A stretch of 32,000 nucleotides of DNA from Wolbachia endosymbiont of Litomosoides sigmodontis. GTDB taxonomy: Bacteria; Pseudomonadota; Alphaproteobacteria; Rickettsiales; Anaplasmataceae. The notes beneath the pieces were generated by a model that was not told the origin of the DNA, searched no databases, and saw nothing but the letters and a program-made list of their open reading frames with translations. Below are positions 1,874-29,029 of this stretch, piece by piece (position 1 is the first letter of the stretch; each line of letters opens with the position of its first letter). Where the stretch lies: NCBI RefSeq assembly GCF_013365435.1, contig NZ_CP046577.1:1013803-1045802 (forward strand), written 5' to 3'. A program made the position numbers and the translations under genes.

Positions 1874-2956
<1,083 letters not shown>

Positions 2957-3030
2957 GTATGATAACTGTTTTGAAGGTAATTTATTAATTTTTTTTTGAT
3001 GAAATTGTGCATCATAAATTAGATTACAGG

Positions 3031-3479
3031 ATTAATTATCTATCATTGTTAATAGGTCAAAATAAGTGACATTGCAGAATTGTTTAATTACGGAGTAAGG
3101 AAGAGAGGTAATAAATTTGCACAAAGCGCTCTCAAGTAAAGCAATTTTATTATTGCCTTTATTATACAAAATGTTCTGTTTTATATATAACCAAAATCTC
3201 TCAATAAGGCTGAGCTCCAGTGAGTATGGTAATAGATATATAACCTAGATATTTTTAGATACCTTTAAATTTTTCAACCTATATCAATTAACACAATCCA
3301 TGATAAGAGAGGCTTTCCATGTTTTTAAATGTTGTAACCTTTATTCAAGGAATATATTCACATAATCAGTGTTGACATTCGGTATAAATAAGCTAGGATT
3401 CTCTTCATTTTTAAGCTCAATTGTGCTGTAGAGATAAAATTTATGCCTACCTAATTTTACTTTAACTGTGTTTTAACAC
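3031..3479 (-). mobile_element. Degenerate IS630-family element, 3' (right-end) half only; forms the left arm of foldback composite A
   Basis: Reverse complement of 4135-4572. About 350 bp (3062-3410) differ from the partner arm at only 3 positions. The outer about 30 bp and inner about 60 bp are more diverged. It carries the antisense of the transposase C-terminal remnant. Confidence 0.85.
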
Positions 3480-4572
3480 CAACTCTCCTGCGTAAAAAAT
3501 GGACAAATAATAATGAAAAAGAAGCCATATTGAAGTAAGTAAAATAGCAAGATTTAAATGGCACTAGAATCAAAATTATTAGGTAAAAATCATGAAATTA
3601 GTGAAAGAAATGCTGAAGACAGTACAAAACAACGCATATGTTGCAAAAAACCAATGCTGTAATTGCAGCAAAAAAGCACAGTATAACAGCCATAGCAAAA
3701 GTATGTTGTTGTATTTTTTAAATAGCACTAACTGCATGAATAAAGCACTTAAAATTTGGAAGAGGAGAAAATTCCTTGCCTCCCCCTCTAAACGTTATAG
3801 AAAAAGCAGATTGAATCAGAGCTAATTTGAATAAGTTGAAGTATAGATACCAAAAAAACTAATATCATCACTAAAAAAATGAGAATAAGAACCCAGGAAA
3901 AATTTGCCTTAAATGTCAGTAAGTCTATAGCACATCGTAATATACAAAAAATGAAATTTTCATATATTACGCAAAACCAATTCACAATAAACAAGATAAA
4001 GATAGATAAGAAGAGCTAAAAAAACTTAATGAGATTATTGGTAAGCACCCTAAACAAGAGGTTATTCATCTTTGATAAATTGCAGTTTAGCATATATTCA
4101 AGTTGACACGGGTATTTAAAAACGGCATTAGAACATAGGTTAAAGTAAAATTAGGTAGGCAAATTTTTTTATCTCTATAGGCCAATTAAGCCTAAAAATG
4201 AAGAGAATCCCAGCTTATTTATACCGAATGTCAACACTGATTATGTGAATATATTCCTTGAATAAATGTTACAACATTTAAAAATATGGAAAGCCTCTCT
4301 TATCATGGATTGTGTTAATTGATATAGGTTGAAAAATTTAAAGGTATCTAAAAATATCTAGGTTATATATCTATTACCATACTCACTGGAGCTCAGCCTT
4401 ATTGAGAGATTTTGGTTATATATAAAACAGAACATTTTGTATAATAAAGGCAATAATAAAATTGCTTTACTTGAGAGCGCTTTGTGCAAATTTATTACCT
4501 CTCTTCCTTACTCCGTAATTAAACAATTCTGCAATGTCACTTATCTTACTCACTAACAATAAGAATTGGTAT
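3480..4572 (+). mobile_element. Degenerate full-length IS630-family element (transposase pseudogene); body plus right arm of composite A
   Basis: The sense frame reads ...LIMDCVN*YRLKNLKVSKNI*VIYLLPYSLELSLIERFWLYIKQNILYN...ALLESALCKFITSLPYSVIKQFCNVTY. This corresponds to the IS630/Tc1-mariner LIMDNA..H (second D) and LPPYSPELNPIE..W motifs. Multiple stops and frameshifts are present. The right end ...AAGAATTGG is followed by TA. Confidence 0.85.
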
Positions 4573-5335
4573 TATTTCAGTAATGCTTCTTTTCCATTAT
4601 TATCTATCCGTTCTTTATAAAGTAGAAATTGGTATAAAAACTTTAAACTAAGAAATCTCTTCCTAAGTTTAGCAGATTTCTTCTATTCGGTGCTATTTAG
4701 TAAATTTCTCAAATATTTGTATTATCTACCGTCATCCAGCTGTTTGTTAGCGTAACTTAGAGATATCGCGAATAAATCTCGGTACAATGAATTGCGTCTA
4801 ACATGTAACCAGGGAAAAAAGGTATAAATCCTAATAGTATTGAAACGGCAATGTTCGATATCATGAAAATAACTGACACTGAAAGCCTACTGTTTATCTT
4901 AAATCAATTCTGAAGAATTAAAGATTATATATGCACCAAAATCACTACTTTATCACTATAAAAGTAATTGCCACTTATATTTTTGGACTATCTTCATAAT
5001 AATTAGAGACTACTTCATTAAGTGAATGAAAAATATTTCCCCCTTCTTCAAGAAATTTGTTATATTGGTTGTGGTTACTTGATTTCATTTTTACTGGCCT
5101 ATTTTTTCTTAAGCAATTAAATAGTCATTTATAATGAACTCTATCAGCAACCACACTAAGTTTCTTGGCCATTATGCAACAAAGCCATGCCAATGTCAGT
5201 TACTCTGGTAACAATAGAAAGTTGCAGTTACCCAAGCAGCTAATACTGGGATTTAGGCTTTTTACACTGAACTCCCTATCATAAGATAAAGAGAGGCAAA
5301 GCTTACCCCATTTACTACATTTACTTATAAGTTAT

Positions 5336-6451
5336 ATGCTAAAAGAACTTAAAATTGAACCTCTGTTAAAAGATAAAGCTCCACATCAAATCAAGGCTGT
5401 AGTTGCAATGTCTGGTGGAGTAGATAGCTCCGTTGCTGCAGTGTTACTACATCATCTCGGGTATCAAGTAATTGGTGTAACTCTTCAGCTATATGCTACT
5501 GATAGTAGCAATGCCAATGCAAGAAAAGGTGCATGCTGCGCCGGACAAGATATTTACGATGCCAAGCATGTAGCTGAAAGTACTGGGTTTCCTCATTATA
5601 TCTTAAATTATGAAAAAATATTCAAAAAAGAAGTGATAGAGAATTTTGCACAAACCTATATGCAGGGAAAAACTCCTATACCATGCATAAAATGTAACCA
5701 AACAGTAAAGTTCCGTGATTTATTACAAATCACAAAAAATCTTAGTGCAGATGTCTTAATTACAGGACACTACGCGAGAAGATTAGAAAAAAATGGTGAA
5801 GTAAAGTTGTATAGAGGCATAGATAAAAGTAAAGACCAAAGCTATTTTCTGTTTACCATAACAAAGAAGCAGTTGGAATTTTTGAGATTTCCACTTGGCA
5901 AGTTCTGTAAACACGATGTAAGAAAATTAGCAAAGTACTTTAATTTGCCAATTTCTGAGAAGCCAGATAGTCAAGATATATGCTTTGTTTCCGAAAGCTA
6001 CAGCAAAACAATAGCTAAGCTAGCTCCACAATCTGTACAGAAAGGCAAAATTGTAGATGTAAATGGAAAAGTACTAGGCGACCATAATGGTATAGTAAAC
6101 TTTACAGTGGGACAAAGAAAAGGGTTAGGTATCGCACATAGTGAACCTCTTTATGTTGTAAGAATCAACACGAAAAATAATGAAATAGTAGTAGGACCAG
6201 TTAATGCACTAATGCAAAGAAAAGTATTAGTTAAGGAGTTAAATTGGTTAGAACAACCAAAGGAAGGTATGGAAGTAATTGTAAAGCTCCGTTCATCACA
6301 CTCGGGAAATTTGGCAACAATATATCCAATCAGAGAACAAAATAAAGCTTATGTCATTTTAAACGAAGATTACTTTGGCATCAGCCCTGGCCAAGCCTGT
6401 GTAGTATACAAAGATGAGCAAGTTATCGGGGGTGGATGGATATGTTCTTAA
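5336..6451 (+). CDS. mnmA: tRNA-specific 2-thiouridylase MnmA
   Basis: 371 aa. PP-loop AMSGGVDSSVAA, plus CCAGQD, PCIKCN and KDQSYFL. Confidence 0.95.
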   Translation: MLKELKIEPLLKDKAPHQIKAVVAMSGGVDSSVAAVLLHHLGYQVIGVTLQLYATDSSNANARKGACCAGQDIYDAKHVAESTGFPHYILNYEKIFKKEVIENFAQTYMQGKTPIPCIKCNQTVKFRDLLQITKNLSADVLITGHYARRLEKNGEVKLYRGIDKSKDQSYFLFTITKKQLEFLRFPLGKFCKHDVRKLAKYFNLPISEKPDSQDICFVSESYSKTIAKLAPQSVQKGKIVDVNGKVLGDHNGIVNFTVGQRKGLGIAHSEPLYVVRINTKNNEIVVGPVNALMQRKVLVKELNWLEQPKEGMEVIVKLRSSHSGNLATIYPIREQNKAYVILNEDYFGISPGQACVVYKDEQVIGGGWICS

Positions 6452-6471
6452 CTAGAGGTTCTATAGTGTTA

Positions 6472-7538
6472 TACTAATTCTCACTATACAAGAAACGGAT
6501 CTTCAATAATGGAAAGAAGCTATACTGAAACAAGTAAAATAGCTATATTTAAATAGTATCAAAATTATTAGATAAAAAATCGTGAAATCAGGAAAGAAAT
6601 GCTGAAGAAAGTATAAAATAACTCATATGTTACAAAAAAATCAAATGCTGTAATTGTAATAAAAACATAGTATAACAGCCGTATCAAGAATAGCACTAAC
6701 TGTATGAATAAAATACCTAAAATTTGGAAGAGAAAAAATTATTTTCTCTTTCCAATGCGTGAAAAAATTAGATTAAATCCAAGTTAATTTGAACAAGTTG
6801 AAGTATGGATATAAAAAAACCATAATATTATCATTAAAGAAATAAGAACTCAGAAAAAATTTGGCTTGAATATCAACAAGTCTACACTACACCGTAGTAT
6901 GCAAAAAATAAAGTTTTATATATTACGCCAAGACCAATTCACAATGAACAAGATAAAGGTAGACAGGAAAGAGTTTCAAAACAACTTAATGAAAGTATTG
7001 ATAAGTATCCTGAATAAGAGTTATTCACCTTTGATGAATTGCAGTTTGGCACATGTTCAAAAGTTGAATACTGTGATTTTAAAAAGGCATTGGAACATAG
7101 GTTAAAGTAAAATTAGCTAGACAAAATCTTTATCTCTATAATGCAGTTAATCCTAGAAATGAAGAGAGTTCTAGCTTATTTGTATCAAATGTTAATACTG
7201 ATTATATGAATACATTTCTTGAATAAATGCCGCAATATTTAAGAATACGAGAAGCCTTTCTTATCATGGACTATGCTAGTTGATCTAAGCCAAAAATTTA
7301 GAAGTATTTTAAAATATCGAGGCTATATACTTACCACTACACCTCTTAAGCTTATCCTATTGAGAGATTTTGGTTTTATATATAAAATGGAATATTTTAT
7401 GTAATAAAGTCTATATCTATAATACAATCGCCTTGCTTGAGAGCGCTTCGTGCGAATTTATCACCTCTCTTTTTCACCACGCAATTAAACAACTCTACAA
7501 TGTTACTTATTTGACTCACTAACAATCAGAATTCACTC
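6472..7538 (+). mobile_element. Degenerate full-length IS630-family element (transposase pseudogene)
   Basis: Colinear with 3480-4572, 11307-12339 and 22089-23191 at roughly 75-80% identity by eye. Left end TA|CTAATTCTCACTATACAAG. It contains the remnants ...SPLMNCSLAHVQKLN (FxDE region) and ...LIERFWFYI. The longest ORF is 79 aa. Confidence 0.85.
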
Positions 7539-7848
7539 TAACAATCAACTGATAAAATTACATCTAAGTTGTAAAATTGTGCAAGATACTTTAATTATCA
7601 TCAGAAGCAGTTGTTTCTAAAATGGGAGCAATTACTTCCTCTTAATAATTTACCATATCTAAATATGTTCTTTATGTATTTACTAATATCTAGAAATTGC
7701 ACATCAAACACAACTCTGCCATTTTTTTGCGCAAGTTATAAATACTTTCCTGGTACAAAACATCAATTCTTATATCTTCATTTGGAGGTATATATAATAG
7801 AACTTCGCTTTCTACTATCTTTCTAGTTATTCTACGTATAGTTCCCGA
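7539..7848 (-). pseudogene. RhuM-family (virulence-protein-like) gene remnant, N-terminal part only, abutting the IS right end
   Basis: Minus-strand frame: NSGTIRRITRKIVESEVLLYIPPNEDIRIDVLYQESIYNLRKKMAELCLMCNF*ILVNT*RTYLDMVNY*EEVIAPILETTASDDN*. This parallels the remembered RhuM N-terminus (..YxxEDgxIxIEVxxxxETVWLTQxQMAELFxxxxxxIxxHIKNIFxxGELxEExVxxxFxxTAxDGK). There is no start codon and there are at least 4 in-frame stops. Confidence 0.45.
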
Positions 7849-8415: not shown

Positions 8416-9666
8416 CTAACTCACCATAATTTTTATGTGGCGTTTCTTTCCTGCAGAAAGTTTTATAAACGACTGATCTTTAAAGCTTTTAGAATTTATT
8501 ATGTAATTAATATCATTTATAGTATGATCATTAACTCTGCATCCATTGCCCTGTATTAAACGCTTTGCAGCACCTTTTGAAGGTTCAAGACCTATATCAT
8601 ACAGTAAGCCTACTAACGATATGCCATTTGCTACTTGTTCTTTTGTTATAGTATAATCAGGAAGTAGAGAGTCGTCTTCATTTTCAAAAACAGAGACTGC
8701 AGCAGATTGTGCAAGTTCTGTTTCTTTATCACCATGACATATTTTTGTCACCTCTGTTGCCAAAACTTTTTTTGCTTCGTTTATTTCTTGATTTTTTAAA
8801 GATTCTAGTTCTTTAATCTCATCAATTGATAAGTCAGTGAAAAATCTCAAAAAGCGCCCAATGTCTTGATCATCAATGTTGCGAAAGTACTGCCAGTAGT
8901 CATAAGGCTTTAGCATATCACCATCAAGCCACACAGTACCACTCTCAGTTTTGCCCATTTTTTTTCCATGAGTACTCAACAAAAGAGGCGTAGTAAGACC
9001 AAATAGCTCAGGTAAATTCAATTTTTTGCCAAGTTCAATTCCACTTATTATATTTCCCCACTGGTCCGATCCTCCTATTTGTAAACGGCAGTCATACCTT
9101 TTGTTTAACTCAGCAAAGTCGTAAGCCTGTAATAACATGTAATTAAATTCTAGAAAACTTAGATTTTGTTCTCTATCAAGTCTAGTTTTTACACTATCAA
9201 AACTGAGCATGCGATTTACAGAAAAATGCACCCCTATATCACGCAAAAAATCTATGTATTTTATATTATCTAGCCAATCTGCATTATTTACTATAATTGC
9301 ACCAGTCTTTCCATCATCAAAAGATACCATTTTCTCAAGCACTTTTTTTATGCTAGATATATTTTGATTTATATTTTCAATAGGCAAAAAGCTTCTTGCT
9401 TTGTCTTTACCAGATGGATCACCAATCTTTGTTGTGCCACCTCCAAGTAAAACTATCGGCTTATAACCGAATTTTTGTAGGTGACGAAGCATCATAATTT
9501 GGATTAAGCTACCAATATGAAGACTTGACGCTGTACAATCAAACCCAATATACGCAACCACATAGTTATCCTGTAATAGTAATTGGTCTAACCCTTTAAT
9601 ATTTGTACATTGATACAGATATCCTCTTTCTTGAATGAGATTTAAAAATTCAGACTTGTGCTTCAC
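8416..9666 (-). CDS. tyrS: Tyrosine--tRNA ligase
   Basis: 416 aa. HIGH motif as HIGSL and KMSKS motif as KMGKT. GGSDQWGNI is present, and the C-terminus is S4-like (AAKRLIQGNGCRVN). Confidence 0.95.
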   Translation of the reverse strand: MKHKSEFLNLIQERGYLYQCTNIKGLDQLLLQDNYVVAYIGFDCTASSLHIGSLIQIMMLRHLQKFGYKPIVLLGGGTTKIGDPSGKDKARSFLPIENINQNISSIKKVLEKMVSFDDGKTGAIIVNNADWLDNIKYIDFLRDIGVHFSVNRMLSFDSVKTRLDREQNLSFLEFNYMLLQAYDFAELNKRYDCRLQIGGSDQWGNIISGIELGKKLNLPELFGLTTPLLLSTHGKKMGKTESGTVWLDGDMLKPYDYWQYFRNIDDQDIGRFLRFFTDLSIDEIKELESLKNQEINEAKKVLATEVTKICHGDKETELAQSAAVSVFENEDDSLLPDYTITKEQVANGISLVGLLYDIGLEPSKGAAKRLIQGNGCRVNDHTINDINYIINSKSFKDQSFIKLSAGKKRHIKIMVS

Positions 9667-9724
9667 GGTTTACTTTTATTAATTAAAGTGATTCTAACTC
9701 ACAAATCTTATAAATGGAAGAAAG

Positions 9725-10051
9725 TTAATTCCACAATTCTTCTATTTTATAATATTCCCTTACCTCTGACCTGAATATATGAACCATTATGTCTTGAAAA
9801 TTCAAAATCACCCAATTGCCTTCATCCATACCTTCCACATCTATTTTATAATATTGCTTAAAACTTTTTATTACATGTTCAGCTAATGCCTTCACATGGC
9901 GACTTGAATCACCAGATGCAATAATCATATATTTTGCAATAAAGGTTTTATTTTGCACATCAAAAATGACTATATTATGACCTTTATTTTGATCTATTGT
10001 ACTTACAATTGTGCTTTTTATTGATTCTGTATCACTGGATACGTTAGTCAT
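9725..10051 (-). CDS. rsfS: Ribosome silencing factor RsfS (iojap family)
   Basis: 108 aa. Typical iojap core: IAKYMIIASGDSSRHVKALAEHV...EGMDEGNWVILNFQDIMVHIF..EVREYYKIEELW. Confidence 0.85.
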   Translation of the reverse strand: MTNVSSDTESIKSTIVSTIDQNKGHNIVIFDVQNKTFIAKYMIIASGDSSRHVKALAEHVIKSFKQYYKIDVEGMDEGNWVILNFQDIMVHIFRSEVREYYKIEELWN

Positions 10052-10220
10052 TATACTAGATTATATAATTCATTTATAATTATACACCCAAAATCTCTAA
10101 ACATAAACCATTTTGATATAGTTGCTTGCTAAGCAAGTAGTTTAAGCTTTCAGTGTAACAATATGTACAGCACATATCCTCTTGTATACAATGAAAGGTA
10201 ATTTCTCTATTATATTTATT

Positions 10221-10763
10221 ATGAGTAAGACTCTCATTTACTTAATCGGCTTCCTAGGTAGGAGAAAATTGATTATTGCAAAAGAACTATGTAAGGTCAT
10301 TGATGCGGTGATAGTAAGCAATAACCTTTTTAATAATATTATACTCAAAATCGTTAAATTAAGTAATACCGAAGTTACAGGTAACTTATGAAAAAAATTT
10401 TTACAATCAGAGAAAATATGTTAGCAATATTAGAACAGTATTCCACAAAATCAAAGCATTACATATTTATAAATGAATTATATAGATGGTAATCCCCGCA
10501 CCTAAAAAGTATACTACTCAGTAGTAAACTTAAGCAAAAAAATGAGCGTAAAAATTCTTTTTATGGTATTACGTTGCAATAGTAAAGGACTAGTAGAGCG
10601 GATCCAATCAGAAGATAGGCATCAGGAAAATAAAATTACCGATTTAGATCTTGCTTCAAAGAAAATTGAAAGAAAAAGGTTATTTGTATCTAAAGGTGCT
10701 TTTGAGATTAACAACTCGAAATTAAGCGTAAAGAGGGTTGCAAAAAAATTGCTGACAAGATAA
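10221..10763 (+). pseudogene. P-loop kinase/AAA_33-like ATP-binding protein pseudogene, split into three frame fragments
   Basis: Fragment 1: MSKTLIYLIGFLGRRKLIIAKELCKVIDAVIVSNN. Its Walker A is degraded to GFLGRRKL and it ends in a stop at 10389. Fragment 2 is shifted at an A7 run (10391-10397): KKIFTIRENMLAILEQYSTKSKHYIFINELYRW*. Fragment 3 returns to the first frame: ILFMVLRCNSKGLVERIQSEDRHQENKITDLD...FEINNSKLSVKRVAKKL. Confidence 0.5.
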
Positions 10764-11306: not shown

Positions 11307-12339
11307 TACTAATTCCCACTATACAAGGAACATATAAACAATAATAAAAGAGAAGCCTTACTAAGTAAGGTAGCAAGATTCAAATGACATTGAAATCAAT
11401 AATTATCAAATGAAAAAACCGTAAAATCAGCAAAAGAAACACTGAAAAAAGTACAAAATAACGCATATGTTACATTCAAGAACAGCATTGACTATATGGA
11501 TAAAGCGCTAAAATTTAGAAGAGAAGAAAAGTTGTTTACTCTCTATCAAAGTTATAGAAAAACTAGATTGAATTAGAGTTAATTTAAATAAGTTGAAGCA
11601 CGAATACAAGAAAGTTATAACATCACCATTTAAAGAAATAAGAATAAAAAAATCCAGAAAAATTTTTGCTTAAATGTCAGTAAGTCCTACAATACACCAT
11701 AATATACAAAAATGAGTTTTCATGTATTATATCAAGATTAATTCACAATAAATAAGATATAAGGTAGACAGGAAGAGTTAAAAAAACTTAATGAGACTAT
11801 TGGTAGGTATCCTGAACAAGAGTTATTCATCTTTGATGAATTGCAGTTTGGTACATGTTCAAAAGTTGAGTACTGGTGATTTAAAAAAGGCGTTAAAACA
11901 CAGATTAAAGCAAAATTAGGTAGATAAAACTTTTACCTCTATAATGCAGTTAATCCTAGAAAAGAAGAGAGTTTTTAGCTTATTTGTCCTAAATGTGTGA
12001 TCAACACTGATTGTATGAATATATTTTTTGAACAAATACCACAATATTTAAGAATATTAGGAACCTTTCTTATTATGGACTGTGCTAGTTGATCTAAGTC
12101 AAAAAATTTAGAAGTATCTAAAATATCTAGGCTATATATCTACACCACACCTACCTAAGCTTAATCATATTGAGAGACTTTAATTGTATATAAACAGAAT
12201 ATTTTATGAACAAAAAGTCTATAATAGAATTGCATTACTATGAGAGCGCTTTGTGTAAATTTATCATCTCTCTTTTTCACTACTCAATTAAACAACTTTG
12301 ATAATGTTATTCATGACTCAAATAATAATGAATTAATAT
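11307..12339 (+). mobile_element. Degenerate full-length IS630-family element (transposase pseudogene)
   Basis: Left end TA|CTAATTCCCACTATACAAGG starts directly after the rppH stop codon. It is colinear with the other copies and retains ...ELFIFDELQFGTCSKVE... and ...IERL*LYINRI... remnants. There is no ORF of 60 codons or more. Confidence 0.85.
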
Positions 12340-12768
12340 CAATATCCATTCACTCAATCTAGCATACTATTTTTATAGTAAACACTATTTACAAAAAAAA
12401 CTCAAAGAAAATTAAGGATTAATTTTATTTACGTGTATGAAAATAAAAAACCTCCTTATTTTCAATTTTCCCCAAAAATGGAATATAGAGGAGTTTTTTC
12501 ATCTTTTTCCTCTAGTTGATATTCTAGTCTGTAATTCAGTTTGGCAAAATGATTAATACATACCTCCATAAATGGTAGTTTAAGCTTTTCAAAAAGCCAA
12601 AATTCCATATAATTCTAGTTATAAATTATAGATTCTAGAAAAGATACTATCACAGATTCATTAAATATGAACAATTTCCTAAAAAACGAGCAGTATTATT
12701 TTCGCATAGTGCAAAGTGTTCCCATTTAAATTCTATGTCGTCCATATAATCAACTTACTTAAAAAATT

Positions 12769-15276
12769 ATGAATTTCTTTAGAGAAAAAAACACTCCTGT
12801 AATAGAGCAATATTTAAGACTAAAAGCTCAATATCAGGATCATCTGTTATTTTATAGACTGGGAGATTTTTACGAGTTATTTTTTGATGATGCTATTAAA
12901 GCTGCAAAGTTGTTGAATATAGTACTAACTAAGAGGGGCAATTCGTATGGGCAAGAAGTGCCGATGTGTGGAGTGCCAGTACATAGTAGTGAATCTTACC
13001 TTCATAAATTAATAGATTTAGGATTTAAAGTAGCAATCTGCGATCAGTTAGAAACTGCTGATGAAGCAAAAAGGAGAGGCTATAAATCTATAGTAAAACG
13101 TGATGTAGTGCGAATTATAACTCCAGGGACAATTGTTGAAGATTCGCTATTAGAGGATAAAAACAACAATTATCTCGCATCTATAGTTGAGCAAAATGGG
13201 GAGTACGCTATTGGCTGGCTTGAATTGTCAACAGGAAAATTTTTTCATACCTTAACGAATTTAAAAGCTCTGGACAGTGATTTATTGCGCATATCACCAA
13301 AAGAATTACTAATTTCTGATAAATTAGCTGAGGATAAAAAAATCAGATCAATTTTAAAAAATTATAAAATATCGATTACGCAGCATGCACAGAGCTTTTT
13401 TGAGCATAATAAATCTCATAGAACACTGTGCGAATTTTATAAAGTTAGAGAACTTGGGGTTATAGGAAATTTCAGCAAAGTGGAGATTATGGCGTGTGGT
13501 ACACTGCTTGAATATGTTAGAGTAACACAAAAAGGCTCCATTCCAAGACTTGAATTACCAAAACCCTATAAGCAGCAAAATTTCATGCTTATTGATACCT
13601 CAGCAAGAAGAAATCTTGAGTTATTTTTAACTCAGTCTGGTGAAAAGAAAGGCTCACTAATTTCAGTTATCGATCACACAGTAACAGCTTCTGGTGGACG
13701 TTTGCTAAAACAAATGCTTGCATCACCGCTCGCTTGTTCTAAGGCGATTAACTTGAGGCTCAGTACCATTGAATTTTTTGTAAATAACCATGAACCACGC
13801 AAGAAAATACGGGAAATATTATCTAACATTTCAGATATTGAAAGGTGTTTATCACGTTTAATGCTGGGACGTGGTTCACCAAAAGATATTAATTTATTAA
13901 AAATAGGCCTTGGAAAAACTTTAGAGTTATCTCAGCTTTTATCTAGAATTAAATCTAGTAAAAATGAACCTCTCTTACAAGAATGTATCATCCCAATATT
14001 TGATGCTGAGATTCAACAATCAGTGACGCGTGCTGAAATGACAGTAAAATCAGATGAAAATGAACTTAGTATGATACATAAAAGCCTTGGCAACCATAAA
14101 GACCTATTAGAGCTTCTAAACAGCGCTGTACTTGATAATAATCTCAGCTCTGCAAAAGAAGGAGGATTTATCAATCCAAAATATAATCAAGAGCTATCCG
14201 AGTTATCTTATGTGCTGAGTAATAGCAACAAACTAATAACAAAACTTCGTGAATCTTACCGTGACCTGACTGGTATTGCTACGTTAAAAATATTACACAA
14301 TAACATACTAGGCTATTACATTGAAGTATCAGCAAACCACAAAATAACTTCAGATATATTTATTCACAGGCAAAGCTTAGCAAATAGCACGCGCTATACT
14401 ACTAATGAATTAAAAAAATTAGAAAATAAAATTCTTACAGCACGTGATGCTCTAATCAGCTTAGAAATAAAAATCTTTAGTGAATTGTGTAGTAAAATTG
14501 CTAAAGAATCTGAGAGTATTGCTCTTGCTGCAAATGCTTTGGCAAAACTCGATATCAGAACCGCGTTTGCAGAGCTTGCGGTACAAAATAGTTACACGAA
14601 ACCCATCATTGACGATAGTAAGGAATTCAATATCTGCAATGGAAGACACCCAGTTATTGAAAATAACGATAAATTCATTGCAAATAGCATCAATTTATCT
14701 GGTATACATCTAATTACTGGTCCTAATATGGCTGGAAAAAGCACTTTCTTGAGACAAAACGCTCTCATTGCAATTTTAGCTCATATGGGCTCATTTGTGC
14801 CAGCAGATAGTGCACACATTGGAGTGATTGATAAGATATTCAGCAGGGTTGGCGCAACAGATAATATAACAGCTGGTTACTCTACCTTCATGGTGGAGAT
14901 GCTTGAAACAGCAACCATAATCAATCAGGCAACAGATCGTTCCTTGGTAATACTTGATGAAATTGGTAGAGGAACAGGAGTATATGATGGCTTATCTATT
15001 GCTCAGGCAGTGATTGAACATATTCACAATGTAAATAAGTGCCGTGCCATCTTTGCAACTCATTATCATGAACTAACTAAAGTAAGCAAATACTTGAAAA
15101 GTGTAAAATGTTTCTGCGTAAGAATAAAAGAATGGAATGGAGAAGTGATTTTTTTACGTGAAGTAGTTGAGGGCGTTGCAGATGAGTCATACGGGATACA
15201 TGTGGCAAAACTTGCTGGTTTTCCTGACCATATTTTAAATAGAGCAAGCGAAGTTCTTGAAGAGCTAAAAGCTTAA
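12769..15276 (+). CDS. mutS: DNA mismatch repair protein MutS
   Basis: 835 aa. N-terminal [34 protein letters not shown], Walker [14 protein letters not shown], plus [12 protein letters not shown] and FATHYHELT. Confidence 0.95.
13985..14045. repeat. Degenerate two-hairpin palindromic element inserted in frame in mutS
   Basis: tatcatcccaatatttgatgctgagattcaa..caatcagtgacgcgtgctgaaatgacag, translated [19 protein letters not shown]. It shares its organisation with the repeats at 20536-20598 and 25081-25166. Confidence 0.55.
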
Positions 15277-17125: not shown

Positions 17126-17171
17126 TATGAAGCTATACTTAAAGTAGCTGCTTTTTTTTATGTGTCTACTT

Positions 17172-18248
17172 ATATCAATTCTTATTGTTAATAGTCCAAA
17201 TAAGTGACATTGTAGAGTTGTTTAATTATGGAGTGAGAAAGAGAGGTAATAAATTTGCACAAAGCGCTCTCAAGCAAAGCAATTGTACTATAGACTTTAT
17301 TACGCAAAATACTCTGTTTTATATATAACCAAAAATCTCTCAATAGAATTGAGTTTTGATGAGTATGGTGATAGGTATATAATCTTGATATTTTTAGATA
17401 CCTTTAAGTTTTTTGAATTATGTAAACTAACATAATTCATGACAAAAAAGTCTTTTCGTATTCTTAAATATTACGACATCTGTTCAAGAAATATATTTAT
17501 ACAATTAGTGTTAATATTCGCAGTATAAATAAGTTAGCACTCTCTCCATTTCTAGAATTAACTGCACTGTAAAGATAAAAATTTTATCTACCTAATTTTA
17601 CTTTAGCCTATGTCCTAATACCATTTTTAAACTACCTGTGCCCAACTTTCAAATGTGTGCAACTTAGGACTTATCTAAGATGAATAACTTTTACTCAGGA
17701 TATCACTAATAGTCTCATTAAGTTTTTTATACTCTTCCTATTTGCTTTATCTTGTTCATTATAAATTGGTCTTAGTATATCATGGTTATGATATAGATTT
17801 GCTAACATTTAAGCTAAATTTCTCCTAGATTCTTATTTTTATTTCTTTAATGGCAATACTAGAATTTTCTTGCATCCATACTTCAATTCGTTTAAACTAA
17901 CTCTAATTCGATCCAGTTTTTCTACATCGTTAATGAGAAGTAAATAATTTTTCTTCTCTTCCAAAGTTTAGGTGCCTAGCTCATGTAGTCAATGCTGTTT
18001 TTGAGTGCAACATATTTTTGCCACGGCTGTTGTTATACTGTGCTTTTTGCTACAATTATAGCATTTAGTTCTTTTACAAAATATACACGTTATTTTGCAT
18101 TTTCTTCAGCGTTCCTTTTGCCAATTTCACAATTTTTTATTCAAAAATTATTGATTTCAACGTCATTTCAACCTTGCTACTTTACTACTTCAGTAAGGCT
18201 TCTTTTCTATTATTGTTCATACGTTCCTTGTATAGTGGAAATTAGTAT
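17172..18248 (-). mobile_element. Degenerate full-length IS630-family element (transposase pseudogene)
   Basis: The right-end TIR (TCAATTCTTATTGTTAATAG) is at 17175 and the left end (rc TACTAATTTCCACTATACAAGG) is at 18248. It is colinear with the other copies on the reverse strand and has no intact ORF. Confidence 0.85.
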
Positions 18249-18705
18249 TATGAGCATGCTTTATTTAAAGACAGAGCATTTCTTGCCTTTCTTCTAAGAG
18301 ATATATTCTGCAATAACCTTAAACTTACCACTAATATTAATATGAGCTCTTCAAGTTTTTTGTACCCTAGCGTAAAAGAAATTAATATGGTTGATAGAGT
18401 CATCAATATAATTGAAAATAAAATAGAGCAACCTTTTCTTCATATCTATCGCCAATACAAGTGCCAAATATAGCAGCACAGATTAATCTCATCAGAAAAT
18501 TCACTGCAAACAAATACCTCAAAAGCCTTTAATATGCTAGCCAACTAATCGCCAGTTATTTTATAGGTGACCAAAAAACATGTGATCACACTATAATTAA
18601 AGTGTTATAAATTAAACTTGATAGTATTACTCTTGTTACTTACCACATAATCTTTTACATTCAGAATATGAAGAGTAAAATAAATCAGGAGGTTTCTTGT
18701 TCATT
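18249..18705 (-). pseudogene. ProP-like MFS transporter remnant (N-terminal about 150 codons), cut off by the IS at 18248
   Basis: Minus-strand fragments: FLMRLICAAIFGTCIGDRYEEKVALFYFQL, matching the MFS G-x-x-x-GDRxGRK loop. After a frameshift: LFSIILMTLSTILISFTLGYKKLEELILILVVSLRLLQNISLRRKARNAL, matching the RLLQGxSxGGE region. This runs straight into the IS terminus. Confidence 0.45.
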
Positions 18706-21527: not shown

Positions 21528-21646
21528 TGATTTAGCAACTCTCTGCTTAAATATAGAGCAGATTTTCCAGTATAACCTTGATTTTTTATACGTTTTACTT
21601 CTTTCTCTATATTTGGTTATAGGCTTAAAAACAAACGGTAATCTTA

Positions 21647-22090
21647 ATACCAATTCTTATTGTTAGCGAGTTAAACAAGTGAATTGCAGAATTGTTTAAT
21701 TGCGAAATGAGAAAGAAGATAATTAAATTTGCACAAAAAGCTCTCAAGCAAGGTAATTATATTACAAACTTTACTACGCAAAATGTTCTATTTTATACAC
21801 AACCAAAGTCTCTCAATAGAATCAAGCTTTGGCAGTATGGTGGGGTGGTATATAACCTAGATATTTTTAGGTGCCATTTAAATTTTTTGACTTATTTCAA
21901 TTAGCACAATTCACGATAAGAAAGGCATCTTACCTTCTTAAATATTGCAATATTTCTTCAAAAAATATATTCATACAATCAGTATTAACATTAGGTATAA
22001 ATAAGCTAGAATTCTCTCTATTTTTAGAATAGACTGCACTGTAGAGATAAAATTTTGTCTACTTAATTTTATTTTAGGCTGCATTCTAAT
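21647..22090 (-). mobile_element. Degenerate IS630-family element, 3' half only; forms the left arm of foldback composite D
   Basis: Reverse complement of 22750-23191. 21706-21931 is identical to rc(22906-23131). The outer end is TA|CCAATTCTTATTGTTAGCGAG. Confidence 0.85.
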
Positions 22091-23191
22091 ACCAATTCCC
22101 ATTATTACATAATGGTAGAGATAGATAATAATAGAAAAGAAACCCTATTGAAGTAAGTAAAATAGCAAAATTTAAATGGCATTAAAATTAACGAATCAAA
22201 AAAGTTGTAAAACTAGCAAAAAAATGCAGAAGAAAGCGCAAAATAACACATATATTGCAAAAAAAACAAATACTTAATTGCCGCAAAAAATTACAATATA
22301 ACAACCATAGAAAAAATATATTGTATTTTAAGAACAGCATTAATTGCATGAATAAAGTACCCAAAATTCGGAAGAGAAGAAAATTTTTTGCCTCTCTAAA
22401 CGTCATAAAAAAATCAGATTGAACCAGAGCAAATTTGAATAAGTTGAAGCACGGATACAAGAAAATCATAACATTACTATTAAAGAAATAGGAGTTAAAA
22501 ATCCAGGAAAAATTTGGTTTAAATATCAGCAAATCTACAGCATACCATAAATATGCAAAAATGAGCTTTCGTGTATTATATCAAGACCAATTCATAATGA
22601 ACAATATAAAGGTAAACAAGAACAATTTAAAAAAACTTAATGAGCTTATTGGTAAGTATCCTAAACAAGAGTTATTCATCTTTGATGAATCGCAGTTTGC
22701 ATACATTCAAAAGTTGAACATCGGTAGTTCTAAAAGGACGTCAGAATATAGGTTAAAGTAAAATTAGGTAGACAAAAATTTTTATCTTTACAATACAGTT
22801 AGTTCTAAAAACGGAGAGAGTCCCCTAGCTTATTTGCACCCAATGTAAATACTGATTATTGTATGGATATATTTCTTGAACAAATGTTGCAATATTTTAG
22901 AAGACAAGATGCCTTTCTTATCGTGAATTGTGCTAATTGAAATAAGTCAAAAAATTTAAATGGCACCTAAAAATATCTAGGTTATATACCACCCCACCAT
23001 ACTGCCAAAGCTTGATTCTATTGAGAGACTTTGGTTGTGTATAAAATAGAACATTTTGCGTAGTAAAGTTTGTAATATAATTACCTTGCTTGAGAGCTTT
23101 TTGTGCAAATTTAATTATCTTCTTTCTCATTCCACAATTAAACAATTCTACAATGTCACTTATTTTATTCATTAATAATGAGAATTAGTAT
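22089..23191 (+). mobile_element. Degenerate full-length IS630-family element (transposase pseudogene); body plus right arm of composite D
   Basis: Left end ATACCAATTCCCATTATTAC. The sense fragment (ORF 22561..22761) reads ...KQELFIFDESQFAYIQKLN, which holds the first D of the DDE triad. Downstream, ...LPKLDSIERLWLCIK matches the PELNPIE..W region. The right end ...GAGAATTAG is followed by TA. Confidence 0.85.
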
Positions 23192-23585
23192 AAATATAAT
23201 AATACAACAGAAGTTATAGATAATATTACAGAAAATAACCATAATGATATCATCCTTATAGCAAATTTTCTTGCTTTATCCTTTAATTTCTCTTCAAGGA
23301 ATTTTGAATTAATAGTTCTAGAAAAATAAGGACAGCCAAATAATGCTTAACTAATTCACTTTCTTGCTTCTTAGGTATACCTTTACCAAGTACATTAACC
23401 TTAATATATCCAAGTACTCCAAAAAAAGTTTATACACGTTATCCATCCATCTTTTAGCTTGATATCATTATCTAGATAACAAACAACTTCCATTTATCTT
23501 TAGTAAATATTCAGTCATTTTAATATAAAAATTTAAAAAAAAGCCAAGATAGCTTTAAAATATGGACTATAACATAATAAAAGCC

Positions 23586-27584: not shown

Positions 27585-27667
27585 GTAGTGCATGTTTTCT
27601 CTCTAAAAAAGATAGAAAATTAATTAATTCTTCTCTTTCCACTATTAACGGATTAATAACACAACTA

Positions 27668-28766
27668 ATACCAATTCTCATTATTGGTCAGTCAAATAAG
27701 TGACATTGCAAGTTGTTTGATTAAGAGTAAGAAAGAGAGAAATAAATTTGCATAAAGACTCTCAAGTAAAGTAATTGCATTATAGACTTTAATTATATAA
27801 AATGTTCTATCTTGTATAGAACTAAAGTCTCTTAACAGAATTAAGCTTAGGTAAATATGATAGTAGGTATATAATACTGATGTTTTCAGGTATCTTTAAA
27901 TTTTTTTGACTTATGTCAACTAGCACAATTCATGATAAGAAGGATTTCTCATATTTTTAAATATGACAACATTTGTTCAAGAAATATATTTATATAATTA
28001 ATGTTAACATTTGGCATAAATAAGCTAGAATTTTCTCCATTTTTAGGATTAAGTACACTGTATAGATAAAAACTTTATCTATCTCAGTTTACTTTAACCT
28101 GTGTTTTAATGTCCTTTCTAAATCACCTATGCTAATAATCTTTAAATGTGTATCAACCGTAATTTATCAAAGATAAATAATCTTTATTCATAGTATCTAC
28201 TAATAGTCTATTAGGTCTTTTTTTAAAACACTTCATTATTTATCTTCATCTTGCTCATTAGAATTAGGTTTGACGTAATATACGAAAATTTCATTTTTTA
28301 CGTATTACAGTATACTACAGTCTTGCTGACATCCAAGATAAACTTTTCCTGGATTATTATTCTCATTTCATTAAAGGTAATATTAGGTCTTTTTATATTC
28401 ATACTTCACTTTCTTCAAATTAACTCTAATTCAGTTTTTCTACAATATTAAGGAAAGTAAACAATTTTTTACTCTATCTAAAAATTTTAGGCACTTTATC
28501 CATGCAGTTAATGCTGTTCTTATAAAAGAAGACACATTTTTGCTAAGGCTGTTATACTACTTCTTTGCTACAATTACAGCATTTAATTTTTTTACAATAT
28601 ATGTATCATTTTACACTTTCTTCAGCATTTTTTTTGCTGATTTTACGATCTTTTTTCATTCAATAATTTTAATTTTAATACTATTTTAATTTCGCTATTC
28701 TAGCTATTTCAGTAAGGTTTCTCTTCCATATTATTTGTCTCCGTTCCTTGTATAGTTATATTAACA
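27668..28766 (-). mobile_element. Degenerate full-length IS630-family element (transposase pseudogene)
   Basis: Right-end TIR ATACCAATTCTCATTATTGG at 27668. The left-end remnant (rc ..TAATATAACTATACAAGGAACGG) is at about 28766. It is colinear with the copy at 17172-18248 and has no intact ORF. Confidence 0.8.
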
Positions 28767-29029
28767 TAAGCTAAAATATTTAGTATAAAAAGCTTTTTAC
28801 TTATTTTACTACTAGCTTTGTTTCCATTTTTAGAAGCACCCACAAGTGCTGATGGTGTTAAAGAAAACTACAACTATGAACATTATCCTAAATTGAACCA
28901 TAATTATTTTATAGATGAACTGTATGTTATAAAGAAAAATTATTATAGATAAGATGAGAAATTAAAAATATCAGCAGATAAGAGAATAAAGAAGATAAAA
29001 GAAAGACCGTTTTAACGGTGACACTAAAA

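What the first reader, a model, noticed from the sequence alone, without database searches (positions are those of the whole stretch)
3031..4572. Foldback composite built from a dead IS630 element: an inverted 3' half fused to the complete left end of a full-length copy (locus A)
A roughly 445-bp segment (3031-3479) is the reverse complement of the last roughly 440 bp of the adjacent full-length element (4135-4572). The result is a 1542-bp unit with very long terminal inverted repeats around a roughly 655-bp centre. Both outer termini are therefore IS right ends.

By eye the arms differ at only 3 positions over about 350 bp (3062-3410 versus 4200-4545). Any other copy of this IS in the window is about 20-25% diverged from them. 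The inner junction (about 3478) joins an internal transposase position directly to the full copy's left terminus. This looks like a nested insertion whose other half was lost.

If transcribed through, the unit would fold into a roughly 400-bp dsRNA stem. As DNA, it is a long cruciform-prone palindrome that most bacteria eliminate.
Basis: seen in the sequence. Interest (0 to 1): 0.7.

Follow-up and report, generated by a model that had tools for sequence, protein, structure and literature searches.

The report
Old nested IS630 pair, arms homogenised
Two dead insertion-sequence copies nested head-to-head in a filarial-worm Wolbachia genome form a 1.5-kb unit whose 440-bp inverted arms look young, but the structure is ancient and the arms have been kept alike by one arm repeatedly being copied onto the other.

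Summary
Window 3034-3473 is the reverse complement of 4128-4574. The core (3062-3412 vs 4194-4544) has 3 mismatches, while other copies of the element are 75-82% identical. The element is a dead IS630-family IS in Wolbachia wLsig.

The arms are not young. The same composite, with the same junction and flanks, sits between mreB and mnmA in wLbra, a separate species and assembly. It therefore predates their split and is not a mis-assembly.

In a four-way arm alignment, 57 sites agree within a genome but differ between genomes (including a 7-bp indel). Only 7 sites agree between orthologues. Identity drops to about 57-85% at both arm edges. This is arm-to-arm gene conversion in both lineages.

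A 66-bp inverted left-end remnant at 4575-4640 shows that the host copy was not wholly lost.

The architecture is a class. Eighteen of 77 left-end-bearing IS segments surveyed have an inverted 3' arm on the left end, and 7 share this junction.

How the class arose (hot-spot insertion or transposition as a unit) is unresolved. No function is indicated. Gene conversion among dead IS copies in filarial Wolbachia has been reported before, so this is a variant of a known kind.

The parts
3034..3473 (-). Left arm: inverted 3' part (IS positions about q1104 to q655) of a dead IS630-family copy (the 'host' copy G). Its outer 28 bp (3034-3061) are a degenerate right terminus.
   Evidence: blastn against the full copy; alignments; orthologue in wLbra L059 7218-7662
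3062..3412 (.). Homogenised (gene-conversion) tract of the left arm. It pairs with 4194-4544, with 3 mismatches and a 259-bp perfect run.
3474..3475 (.). TA dinucleotide at the junction between the host's internal position q654/655 and the complete left terminus of the full copy.
   Evidence: Seven loci share the junction ...AACCTGTGTTC|TA|ATACCAATTCC...
3474..4574 (+). Full-length dead IS630-family copy (X), TA to TA. The transposase reading frame is destroyed.
   Evidence: six-copy alignment; the consensus of 32 copies translates to an IS630 transposase, NF033545 254 bits and Pfam DDE_3
3476..4127 (+). Spacer between the arms: the 5' 654 bp of the full copy (HTH part of the transposase up to just after the first catalytic D).
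4128..4574 (+). Right arm: the 3' part (q655-1104) of the full copy, with an intact-looking right terminus ...GAATTGGTAT|TA.
4194..4544 (.). Homogenised tract of the right arm.
4575..4640 (-). Inverted 66-bp left-end remnant (q66 to q1) of another IS copy, abutting the full copy's right end. Best read as the left end of host copy G. It is about 75% identical to the full copy's own left end.
   Evidence: local score z = 11.2 against shuffles; conserved in wLbra
21643..23197 (.). Second composite of the same architecture (locus B): inverted arm 21643-22097, full copy 22098-23197, same q655 junction. The identical tract is 21706-21931 / 22906-23131 (226 bp, 0 mismatches) inside arms that are otherwise about 80% identical.
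   Evidence: In wLbra only about 125 bp of the outer arm survives.

Best explanation
The window comes from the chromosome of Wolbachia wLsig, the obligate symbiont of the filarial nematode Litomosoides sigmodontis. The feature is a relic of two IS630-family insertion sequences nested in opposite orientation.

One copy (X, 3474-4574) abuts the 3' part of another copy (G, 3034-3473) through a TA. G's left end survives as a 66-bp stub at 4575-4640, and G's positions q67-654 are missing. Both copies are dead.

The structure arose before wLsig and wLbra diverged. Since then the two 440-bp arms have repeatedly been copied one onto the other, which is non-reciprocal arm-to-arm gene conversion. As a result, substitutions and even a 7-bp indel that arose in one arm are now found in both arms of the same genome. 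The arm edges, which lack flanking homology on one side, escaped conversion and diverged.

Shown here:
- the anatomy;
- the age of the structure;
- the concerted evolution of the arms, in both lineages;
- the existence of a class of such composites.

Inferred:
- The order of events: inverted insertion at a TA in another copy, then loss of the host's internal segment.
- Dispersal of the class by transposase acting on the two outward-facing right ends.
- The enzymology of conversion. It could be RecA/AddAB-dependent repair. It could also be RecA-independent template switching between the close inverted repeats. The second option is attractive because published annotation lists no recFOR or ruvAB in either genome and no recA in wLbra.

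No present-day function is indicated.
For: Identity of the genome:
- FumC and TyrS of the window map exactly to OY365737.1, 1,045,802 bp.
- That is the wLsig genome size in PMC8116671.
- The window's RsmH is 100% identical to a protein named as from Wolbachia endosymbiont of Litomosoides s... (name cut off in the output).

IS630 family:
- The consensus transposase scores 254 bits on NF033545 (cut-off 100) and hits Pfam DDE_3 at 6.6e-31.
- Termini are flanked by TA, and 12 of 25 outward left-end flanks begin TAG.

Age:
- wLbra contig WQMO01000004 has the same mreB-[arm][full copy][66-bp stub]-mnmA arrangement with the same junction.
- wBm has only 755 bp between mreB and mnmA and no IS.
- The 32-kb window is collinear with wLbra, and all other IS copies are shared.

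Conversion:
- Arms are 93.3% (wLsig) and 93.4% (wLbra) identical within a genome, but orthologous arms are only 82-84% identical.
- There are 57 concerted sites against 7 orthologue-agreeing sites, and the latter lie only at the edges.
- Polarised with the IS consensus, 37 derived changes are shared by both arms in wLsig and 13 in wLbra.
- In a tree, the arms cluster by genome rather than by orthology.
- The tracts are sharply bounded.
- Similar tracts occur in other close inverted IS pairs in wLbra: L014 has a 130-bp perfect run and L037 a 213-bp one.

Class: 18 of 77 left-end-bearing IS segments carry an inverted 3' arm on the left end, and 7 of these have this junction.

Recombination genes: supplementary table of PMC8116671 and Table 1 of PMC4224334.
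Against: - Three other composites with the same junction in wLbra (L017, L036, L054) have arms only 72-82% identical and no long tract. Conversion is therefore locus-dependent, and I cannot say why A and B kept it.
- Every origin model needs one deletion that ends exactly at an IS terminus. The left flank 2957-3032 has no IS similarity.
- wBm does not give a clean empty site, because about 320 bp there are unrelated.
- One recent conversion per lineage cannot be told from continuous conversion.
- I could not verify the recA status of either genome myself (one search was uninformative).
- mutS in the window is intact. That should hinder recombination between diverged repeats. It implies that conversion never lapsed in the core.
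Confidence: 0.85

Rival explanations
1. Young foldback. The inverted arm was created recently, by a recent nested insertion of a sister copy or by fold-back or template-switch duplication of the full copy's own 3' half. On this view the arms are alike simply because they are new.
For: - The core is 99% identical while all other copies are 75-82%.
- A 7-bp microhomology, GGYRTTA, links the reverse complement of the left terminus and internal q648-654. It would fit fold-back priming.
Against: - The same composite and junction are present at the orthologous site in wLbra.
- The arm edges are about 57-85% identical, with sharp transitions.
- Orthologue-specific differences survive at the edges, and 50 polarised derived changes are shared by both arms within one lineage only.
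- The 66-bp stub is only 75% identical to the full copy's left end.
Confidence: 0.04
2. Assembly or polishing artefact. The inverted junction is chimeric, or the two arms were homogenised by read mis-mapping during consensus polishing.
For: Repeats of this kind are a classic source of such errors. I had no reads to inspect.
Against: - Two assemblies of different species, made from different data, show the same architecture and junction.
- wLsig is a single-contig genome (Table 3 of PMC8116671).
- Polishing cannot plausibly overwrite 350 bp at about 15-20% divergence.
- The homogenised tracts carry lineage-specific derived states in both arms.
- Tract borders differ between the two genomes.
Confidence: 0.02
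3. Functional hairpin. Selection keeps the arms complementary because a read-through transcript (from mreB) or the DNA itself needs the long stem. Possible roles are terminator or insulator, antisense or dsRNA, or interaction with host RNA pathways.
For: - Complementarity is retained in two lineages across about 16-18% divergence, with about 50 double changes.
- The predicted stem has 417 pairs and an arms-only energy of -657 kcal/mol, against -150 to -180 for shuffles.
Against: - Gene conversion produces exactly this pattern without selection.
- The same kind of tract occurs in unrelated inverted IS pairs.
- Sister composites with the same junction have decayed arms.
- Locus B was largely deleted in wLbra.
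- The arms are identical rather than merely pairable: only 5 G-U pairs out of 417.
- There is no Rfam match.
Confidence: 0.05
4. Origin of the class, version 1: one composite transposed as a unit. A single nested pair formed once. Transposase then moved it using the two outward right ends, seeding locus B and the other loci that share the junction.
For: - Seven loci share the identical junction.
- At five of the six loci checked (winB, L017, L036, L054 and, less clearly, others), the DNA beyond the full copy's right end is unique sequence flush with the terminus. There is no host 5' remnant.
- Locus A alone keeps such a remnant, as a birthplace would.
Against: - Neither the 5' parts of the full copies nor the host arms of these loci form a clade. 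Mean host-arm to host-arm identity is 79.1%, the same as between simple copies.
- The full copy at L054 groups with a simple copy (L027 6482-7575) in both halves, while its host arm does not.
- No presence/absence polymorphism with a clean empty site was found. Locus B in wLbra is a deletion, not an empty site.
Confidence: 0.3
5. Origin of the class, version 2: recurrent insertion at a hot spot. The element prefers particular TA sites inside its own sequence, so inverted nested insertions arose independently many times at the same position. Host 5' parts were later lost.
For: - Of 95 TA dinucleotides in the consensus, only two are followed by (A)GAACAC. They are exactly the two recurrent junctions, consensus positions 665 and 814.
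- Left-end flanks show a TAG preference, like the CTAG target of IS630.
- The phylogeny is star-like, and host and insert lineages are discordant at L054.
- Many other junction positions also occur.
Against: - It requires repeated loss of the host's 5' part exactly flush with the insert's right end.
- No intact, undeleted nested precursor was seen among the loci surveyed.
Confidence: 0.4

Closest known systems
Gene conversion among non-functional IS copies in filarial Wolbachia (Cordaux 2009, Mol Biol Evol 26:1679, wBm). Its title is cited in PMC3205602, PMC3004938 and PMC4224334; the paper itself is not held, so details come from my memory.
   Same: The symbiont clade is the same (supergroup D). 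The IS copies are dead. Sequence identity is maintained without transposition, by gene conversion.
   Different: - Here conversion is between the two closely spaced inverted arms of one composite.
- It is demonstrated with an orthologous outgroup genome, with lineage-specific derived changes in both arms.
- It occurs in genomes reported to have lost recFOR and ruvAB (wLsig) and also recA (wLbra).
TIR-TIR ectopic recombination with conversion in Wolbachia ISWpi1 (Ling & Cordaux 2010, PMC3004938)
   Same: Recombination and conversion occur between inverted repeats belonging to one IS locus in Wolbachia.
   Different: That case involves 23-bp TIRs and inversion of the element. Here the tracts are 226-351 bp. 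No inversion of the spacer is seen between wLsig and wLbra.
Arm-to-arm gene conversion in large palindromes and inverted repeats, such as primate sex-chromosome palindromes, plastid inverted repeats and bacterial tufA/tufB (established knowledge)
   Same: - Paralogous arms are more alike than orthologous arms.
- Substitutions are shared by both arms.
- Identity decays at the arm boundaries.
   Different: The scale differs (0.44-kb arms, 0.65-kb spacer). The content is dead transposon sequence rather than genes. The host is a 1-Mb obligate endosymbiont.
Nested IS insertions and composite or long-TIR cut-and-paste elements: 18 nested IS cases in Wolbachia (PMC3205602); Tc3 and other long-TIR Tc1/mariner elements, and mariner constructs with two 3' ends (established knowledge)
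   Same: One IS630/Tc1-mariner-type copy lies inside another. The resulting unit is bounded by two identical-type ends in inverted orientation.
   Different: Mobility of this unit is not demonstrated. The long 'TIRs' are coding sequence duplicated by nesting, not evolved transposase-binding arrays.

Membership tests
IS630 family insertion sequence | DDE transposase of the IS630/Tc1-mariner type | tested here: met
   The consensus of 32 copies translates, across one frameshift at an A7 run, to a 334-aa protein. It scores 254 bits on NCBIfam NF033545 transpos_IS630 (cut-off 100). It also hits Pfam DDE_3 at 6.6e-31 and HTH_33.
IS630 family insertion sequence | Short terminal inverted repeats and insertion at TA (CTAG-like) with TA duplication | tested here: met
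   The termini are TA|ATACYAATTC...GAATTRGTAT|TA. Twelve of 25 outward flanks at left ends begin TAG. Duplication as such could not be shown because no clean empty site was found.
IS630 family insertion sequence | Intact transposase gene (an active element) | tested here: not met
   No ORF longer than 77 aa lies inside 3034-4640. All copies in the window are 18-30% diverged from one another and full of stops.
Concerted evolution by gene conversion between repeats | Paralogues within a genome more similar than orthologues between genomes | tested here: met
   Arms are 93.3% and 93.4% identical within genomes, and about 99% in the core. Orthologous arms are 82-84% identical. The tree groups arms by genome.
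Concerted evolution by gene conversion between repeats | Lineage-specific derived changes present in both copies | tested here: met
   37 such changes in wLsig and 13 in wLbra, polarised with the IS consensus, plus a shared 7-bp indel.
Concerted evolution by gene conversion between repeats | Mosaic tracts with sharp borders, beyond chance | tested here: met
   Perfect runs of 259, 148 and 226 bp. Analytic bounds are 5e-13, 6e-6 and 9e-16. None of 20,000 permutations reached them.
Mobile long-TIR / foldback-type composite transposon | Several copies with the same internal structure at unrelated genomic sites | tested here: met
   Seven loci share the q655 junction, and at least 4-6 share the q811-823 junction.
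Mobile long-TIR / foldback-type composite transposon | Copies descend from one another, forming a clade distinct from simple copies | tested here: not met
   The trees are star-like. No clade appears for the full-copy 5' parts or for the host arms. Bootstrap support for 'all type I' is 0.
Mobile long-TIR / foldback-type composite transposon | Insertion polymorphism with an empty site and a target duplication flanking the whole unit | tested here: inconclusive
   Locus A is shared by both genomes. At locus B, wLbra has a deletion derivative, not an empty site. wBm at locus A is not cleanly alignable.
Structured or regulatory RNA | Match to a described RNA family | tested here: not met
   No Rfam 15 match with E-value up to 1 in 2800-5400.
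Structured or regulatory RNA | Transcription through the unit, or small RNAs derived from the arms | not testable with these tools
   No expression data are available here.

The most novel reading that the evidence does not exclude
In two obligate mutualist Wolbachia, published annotation lists no recFOR or ruvAB, and no recA in wLbra. In these genomes, close inverted IS repeats may be homogenised by a RecA-independent template-switching process at the replication fork. That process would have kept a 350-bp hairpin-capable stem intact since before the species split. In addition, the recurrent 'two right ends' IS630 composites may be a family that was mobilised as units during the ancestral IS burst. 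They would be a bacterial counterpart of long-TIR Tc1/mariner derivatives.
Probability: 0.2. Interest if true: 0.6.

Novelty: new variant of a known kind. Interest (0 to 1): 0.45.

Why it matters
This is a clean, datable example of concerted evolution in a tiny, supposedly static endosymbiont genome. About 50 substitutions and an indel were copied between the arms in each of two species after they split.

It shows that high similarity between IS fragments in such genomes cannot be read as recent transposition or recent rearrangement.

It also gives a natural assay for which recombination route still works in genomes that have lost most of the homologous-recombination pathway.

Finally, the recurrent junctions document self-targeted nesting during an ancient IS630 burst. 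They raise the testable idea that elements with two right ends were mobilised as units.

None of this overturns current understanding. Gene conversion among dead IS copies in filarial Wolbachia has already been described.

Tried and rejected
- **Continuation of the host copy on the left flank.** I tested whether the 66-bp stub at 4575-4640 continues to the left of the composite, which would have shown the composite inserted as a unit into a third copy. Region 2957-3032 has no IS similarity (z from -0.8 to 1.6).
- **Empty sites.** wBm lacks the IS at locus A, but about 320 bp there are unrelated, so no exact target could be read. At locus B, wLbra first looked like an empty site from gene spacing. 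It is in fact a deletion that leaves about 125 bp of the outer arm.
- **Common descent of composites.** Trees of full-copy 5' parts and of arms are star-like. Even the A orthologues get only 51% bootstrap support.
- **Host remnants at other composites.** Only locus A and L011 6782-6851 have one.
- **Third orthologous comparison.** I tried the wLbra L036 composites against wLsig. The wLsig protein P0242 could not be located by exact look-up. The window's own MnmA also failed.
- **recA status.** E. coli RecA run by tblastn against all held DNA found nothing, but only about a third of wLbra is held, so this is uninformative.
- **Literature.** A search for the accession numbers found nothing. Cordaux 2009 is not held.
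- **Rfam.** No match.
- **Region 4738-5016.** It is absent from wBm, but it is ordinary intergenic DNA, not a repeat.
Full report
**1. The observation.**

The repeat finder reports arms 3059-3439 / 4167-4547, 381 nt and 98% complementary, and a 31-nt extension. blastn of the full copy against the window extends the match to 3045-3476 (minus strand) against 4128-4560.

A global alignment of the two arms shows exactly three mismatches (3395/4211, 3339/4267, 3321/4285) across 3062-3412 vs 4194-4544. It contains a 259-bp perfect run.

The other copies of the element in the window are 75-82% identical to these arms. They lie at 6467-7539, 11308-12340, 17166-18250 (minus), 27658-28772 (minus) and 22098-23197.

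Two points need correcting:
- The arms are a mosaic. Identity falls abruptly to about 85% at the inner edge (3413-3473) and to about 57% in the outermost 29 bp.
- The structure does not stop at 4572. Region 4575-4640 is an inverted copy of the first 66 bp of the IS.

**2. What the repeated element is, and where the window comes from.**

A six-copy alignment defines an element of about 1.1 kb with termini TA|ATACYAATTC ... GAATTRGTAT|TA. The majority consensus of 32 copies translates, across one frameshift at an A7 run, into a 334-residue protein. That protein scores 254 bits on NCBIfam NF033545 'IS630 family transposase' (cut-off 100). It also hits Pfam DDE_3 and HTH domains. Every copy in the window is riddled with stops.

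Exact look-up of the window's FumC and TyrS places it in NCBI record OY365737.1, which is 1,045,802 bp long. That is the length reported for the complete wLsig genome, Wolbachia of Litomosoides sigmodontis, supergroup D (PMC8116671). The window's RsmH is 100% identical to a protein whose name reads Wolbachia endosymbiont of Litomosoides s... in the output.

The neighbours are housekeeping genes: mreB, mnmA, tyrS, mutS, rnd, rsmH, murD and fumC.

**3. The composite is old and is not an assembly artefact.**

A scan of species-representative genomes with a conserved IS motif found 56 loci. Most are in wLbra, the Wolbachia of L. brasiliensis.

One wLbra tile carries the 3' end of mreB (93.7% identical), followed by the same inverted arm and the same junction. 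The full wLbra locus is L059, with mreB at 6065-7141 and mnmA at 9524-10636. It has the whole arrangement: arm, TA, full copy, 66-bp stub and flank. The intergenic length is almost identical, 2382 bp against 2379 bp.

wBm has only 755 bp and no IS between the two genes.

The entire 32-kb window is collinear with wLbra contig 4. All the other IS copies are shared. The only large difference is a 1.5-kb deletion in wLbra at locus B.

So the composite predates the wLsig/wLbra split. The two genomes are about 11-12% diverged over this region and about 16-18% diverged in the IS sequence. An independent assembly of another species reproduces the structure.

**4. Why the arms are alike: gene conversion.**

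I aligned four arms: the left and right arms of wLsig and of wLbra.
- Arms within a genome are 93.3% and 93.4% identical, and about 99% in the core.
- Orthologous arms are only 82-84% identical.
- At 57 sites, including a 7-bp indel, the two arms agree within each genome but differ between genomes.
- At only 7 sites the orthologues agree and the arms differ. All 7 lie at the inner or outer edge.

Polarising with the IS consensus gives 37 derived changes shared by both arms in wLsig, 13 in wLbra and 5 orthologue-type sites. In a neighbour-joining tree, the arms of locus A group by genome rather than by orthology.

The perfect runs are far longer than chance allows. For A in wLsig, A in wLbra and B in wLsig they are 259, 148 and 226 bp. 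The bounds are 5e-13, 6e-6 and 9e-16, and none of 20,000 permutations reached them.

The edges keep old differences that both species share. This shows the arms were already distinct before the split. The core has been homogenised since then, independently in each lineage.

A rough calculation gives the timing. In wLsig the arms differ at 3 of about 350 sites, while 37 derived changes accumulated over about 400 sites. That puts the last homogenisation within about the most recent 5% of the time since the split. For wLbra the figure is about 10%. This is inference.

The process is not peculiar to locus A:
- Locus B has a 226-bp identical tract inside arms that are about 80% identical elsewhere.
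- The wLbra remnant of B keeps the consensus GCGCTC where both wLsig B arms share a derived AAGCTC.
- Other close inverted IS pairs in wLbra show the same kind of patch (L014, L037).
- It is not universal, however. Three composites with the same junction (L017, L036, L054) have arms only 72-82% identical and no long tract.

**5. Origin of the architecture.**

The left arm plus the 66-bp stub read as one minus-strand host copy G. G's positions q67-654 are missing, and the full copy X sits between its two parts.

The junction lies at a TA. It is also preceded in intact copies by GGCRTTA, which resembles the reverse complement of the terminus. So both a true insertion junction and a microhomology deletion fit.

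The architecture is a class. In 333 kb of wLbra plus the window, 18 of 77 IS segments that include a left end have an inverted 3' arm abutting that left end.
- In 7 of them the arm starts at consensus position 660-664. These are A in both genomes, B, L017, L034, L036 and L054.
- In 4-6 of them it starts at 811-823.
- Seven other positions occur once each.

Of the 95 TA dinucleotides in the consensus, the only two followed by (A)GAACAC are at positions 665 and 814. These are exactly the two recurrent junctions. Left-end flanks favour TAG, as for the CTAG target of IS630.

Two accounts remain open.
- Recurrent insertion at hot-spot TAs. This is supported by the motif, by the star-like trees, and by L054, where the full copy groups with a simple copy in both halves but its host arm does not.
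- Dispersal of a composite as a unit, using its two outward right ends. This is supported by the flush, remnant-free right junctions at most loci.

Both need steps I could not demonstrate. I found no clean empty site.

**6. Mechanism of conversion.**

Published annotation lists recJ, ssb, recA, polA, dnaE, ruvC and recG for wLsig. For wLbra it lists only recJ, ssb, polA, dnaE and recG. recFOR and ruvAB are absent from both (supplementary table of PMC8116671).

mutS is intact in the window. Mismatch repair hinders recombination between diverged sequences. The simplest history is therefore that the core has been converted continually since the arms were alike, and that the tract shrank from its edges.

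I could not decide whether the route is DSB repair through AddAB/RecA/RecG or RecA-independent template switching between neighbouring inverted repeats. My attempt to check recA was uninformative.

**7. Function.**

RNA read through the unit would be predicted to form a very long stem. There are 417 arm-arm pairs, the longest helix is 277 bp, and the arms-only energy is -657 kcal/mol against -150 to -180 for shuffles.

Nothing indicates that this is used:
- There is no Rfam match.
- Sister composites have decayed arms.
- Locus B was largely deleted in wLbra.
- The arms are identical rather than merely able to pair.

With a 654-bp spacer, this is not the kind of palindrome that bacteria rapidly destroy (established knowledge). 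Its persistence is therefore not surprising.

**8. Comparison with what is known, and verdict.**

Several related findings are already in the literature:
- Nested IS insertions in Wolbachia are documented, with 18 cases in PMC3205602.
- Conversion between the inverted repeats of one IS locus in Wolbachia is documented for 23-bp TIRs in PMC3004938.
- Gene conversion that maintains dead IS copies in the filarial symbiont wBm was reported by Cordaux 2009. Its title is cited. The paper is not held, so the details come from my memory.

What is added here:
- an orthologue-calibrated demonstration of arm-to-arm concerted evolution, in two genomes with a depleted recombination pathway;
- a recurrent class of IS630 composites with two right ends, and two hot junction sites.

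That makes it a new variant of known kinds, of moderate interest (0.45).

Noticed in passing
window 21643-23197; wLbra L063 about 11420-11545: There is a second composite of the same architecture (locus B). In wLbra only about 125 bp of its outer arm remains. A 1.5-kb deletion there removes the rest plus 87 bp of flank (window 21778-23283).
   Followed up: yes
IS consensus positions 665 and 814 (window 4125-4140 for the first): The two recurrent junction classes fall on the only two of the 95 TA sites in the IS that are followed by (A)GAACAC (TTAGAACAC and TTAAGAACAC). This may be a self-targeting hot spot. The motif was noticed after the fact.
   Followed up: partly
IS consensus around position 590 (window about 4015-4030: GCTAAAAAAACTTAATG): The reconstructed transposase needs a frameshift at an A7 run between the HTH part and the DDE part. 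This could be a programmed frameshift site of the ancestral element, or a shared early mutation.
   Followed up: no
wLbra L014 3071-3353 / 4119-4381; L037 4266-4554 / 4774-5063; L011 3163-3350 / 4090-4278: Other closely spaced inverted IS fragments in wLbra also contain long perfect tracts (130 bp and 213 bp) inside otherwise diverged repeats. This includes pairs built from left-end parts, with two left ends facing outward.
   Followed up: partly
wLbra L011 6782-8000: This is a second locus with the same layout as locus A. A host left-end stub (q4-72) abuts the right end of an inverted full copy. The host resumes at about q790 on the other side, so the host's internal part is again missing.
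   Followed up: partly
window 12769-15276: mutS is intact (973 bits on the MutS equivalog model), although published annotation reports loss of most homologous-recombination genes in this genome.
   Followed up: no
arms of locus A, wLsig vs wLbra: The wLsig lineage carries about three times as many derived substitutions as wLbra (37 vs 13). Overall GC>AT changes number 29 and AT>GC 20. The rates are unequal, and there is no obvious GC-biased conversion.
   Followed up: partly
whole window vs wLbra contig WQMO01000004 1-35502: All six IS loci in the 32 kb are shared by both species. In this region there has been no IS gain since the split, only decay, conversion and one deletion.
   Followed up: yes
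L005, L007, L008, L015, L020, L021, L033, L035, L058: Copies of the same IS group, about 70-81% identical, occur in arthropod Wolbachia (hosts Cantharis cryptica and Psylliodes chrysocephala). L015 also has a 122-bp inverted repeat that is 99% identical, spaced 691 bp apart.
   Followed up: no
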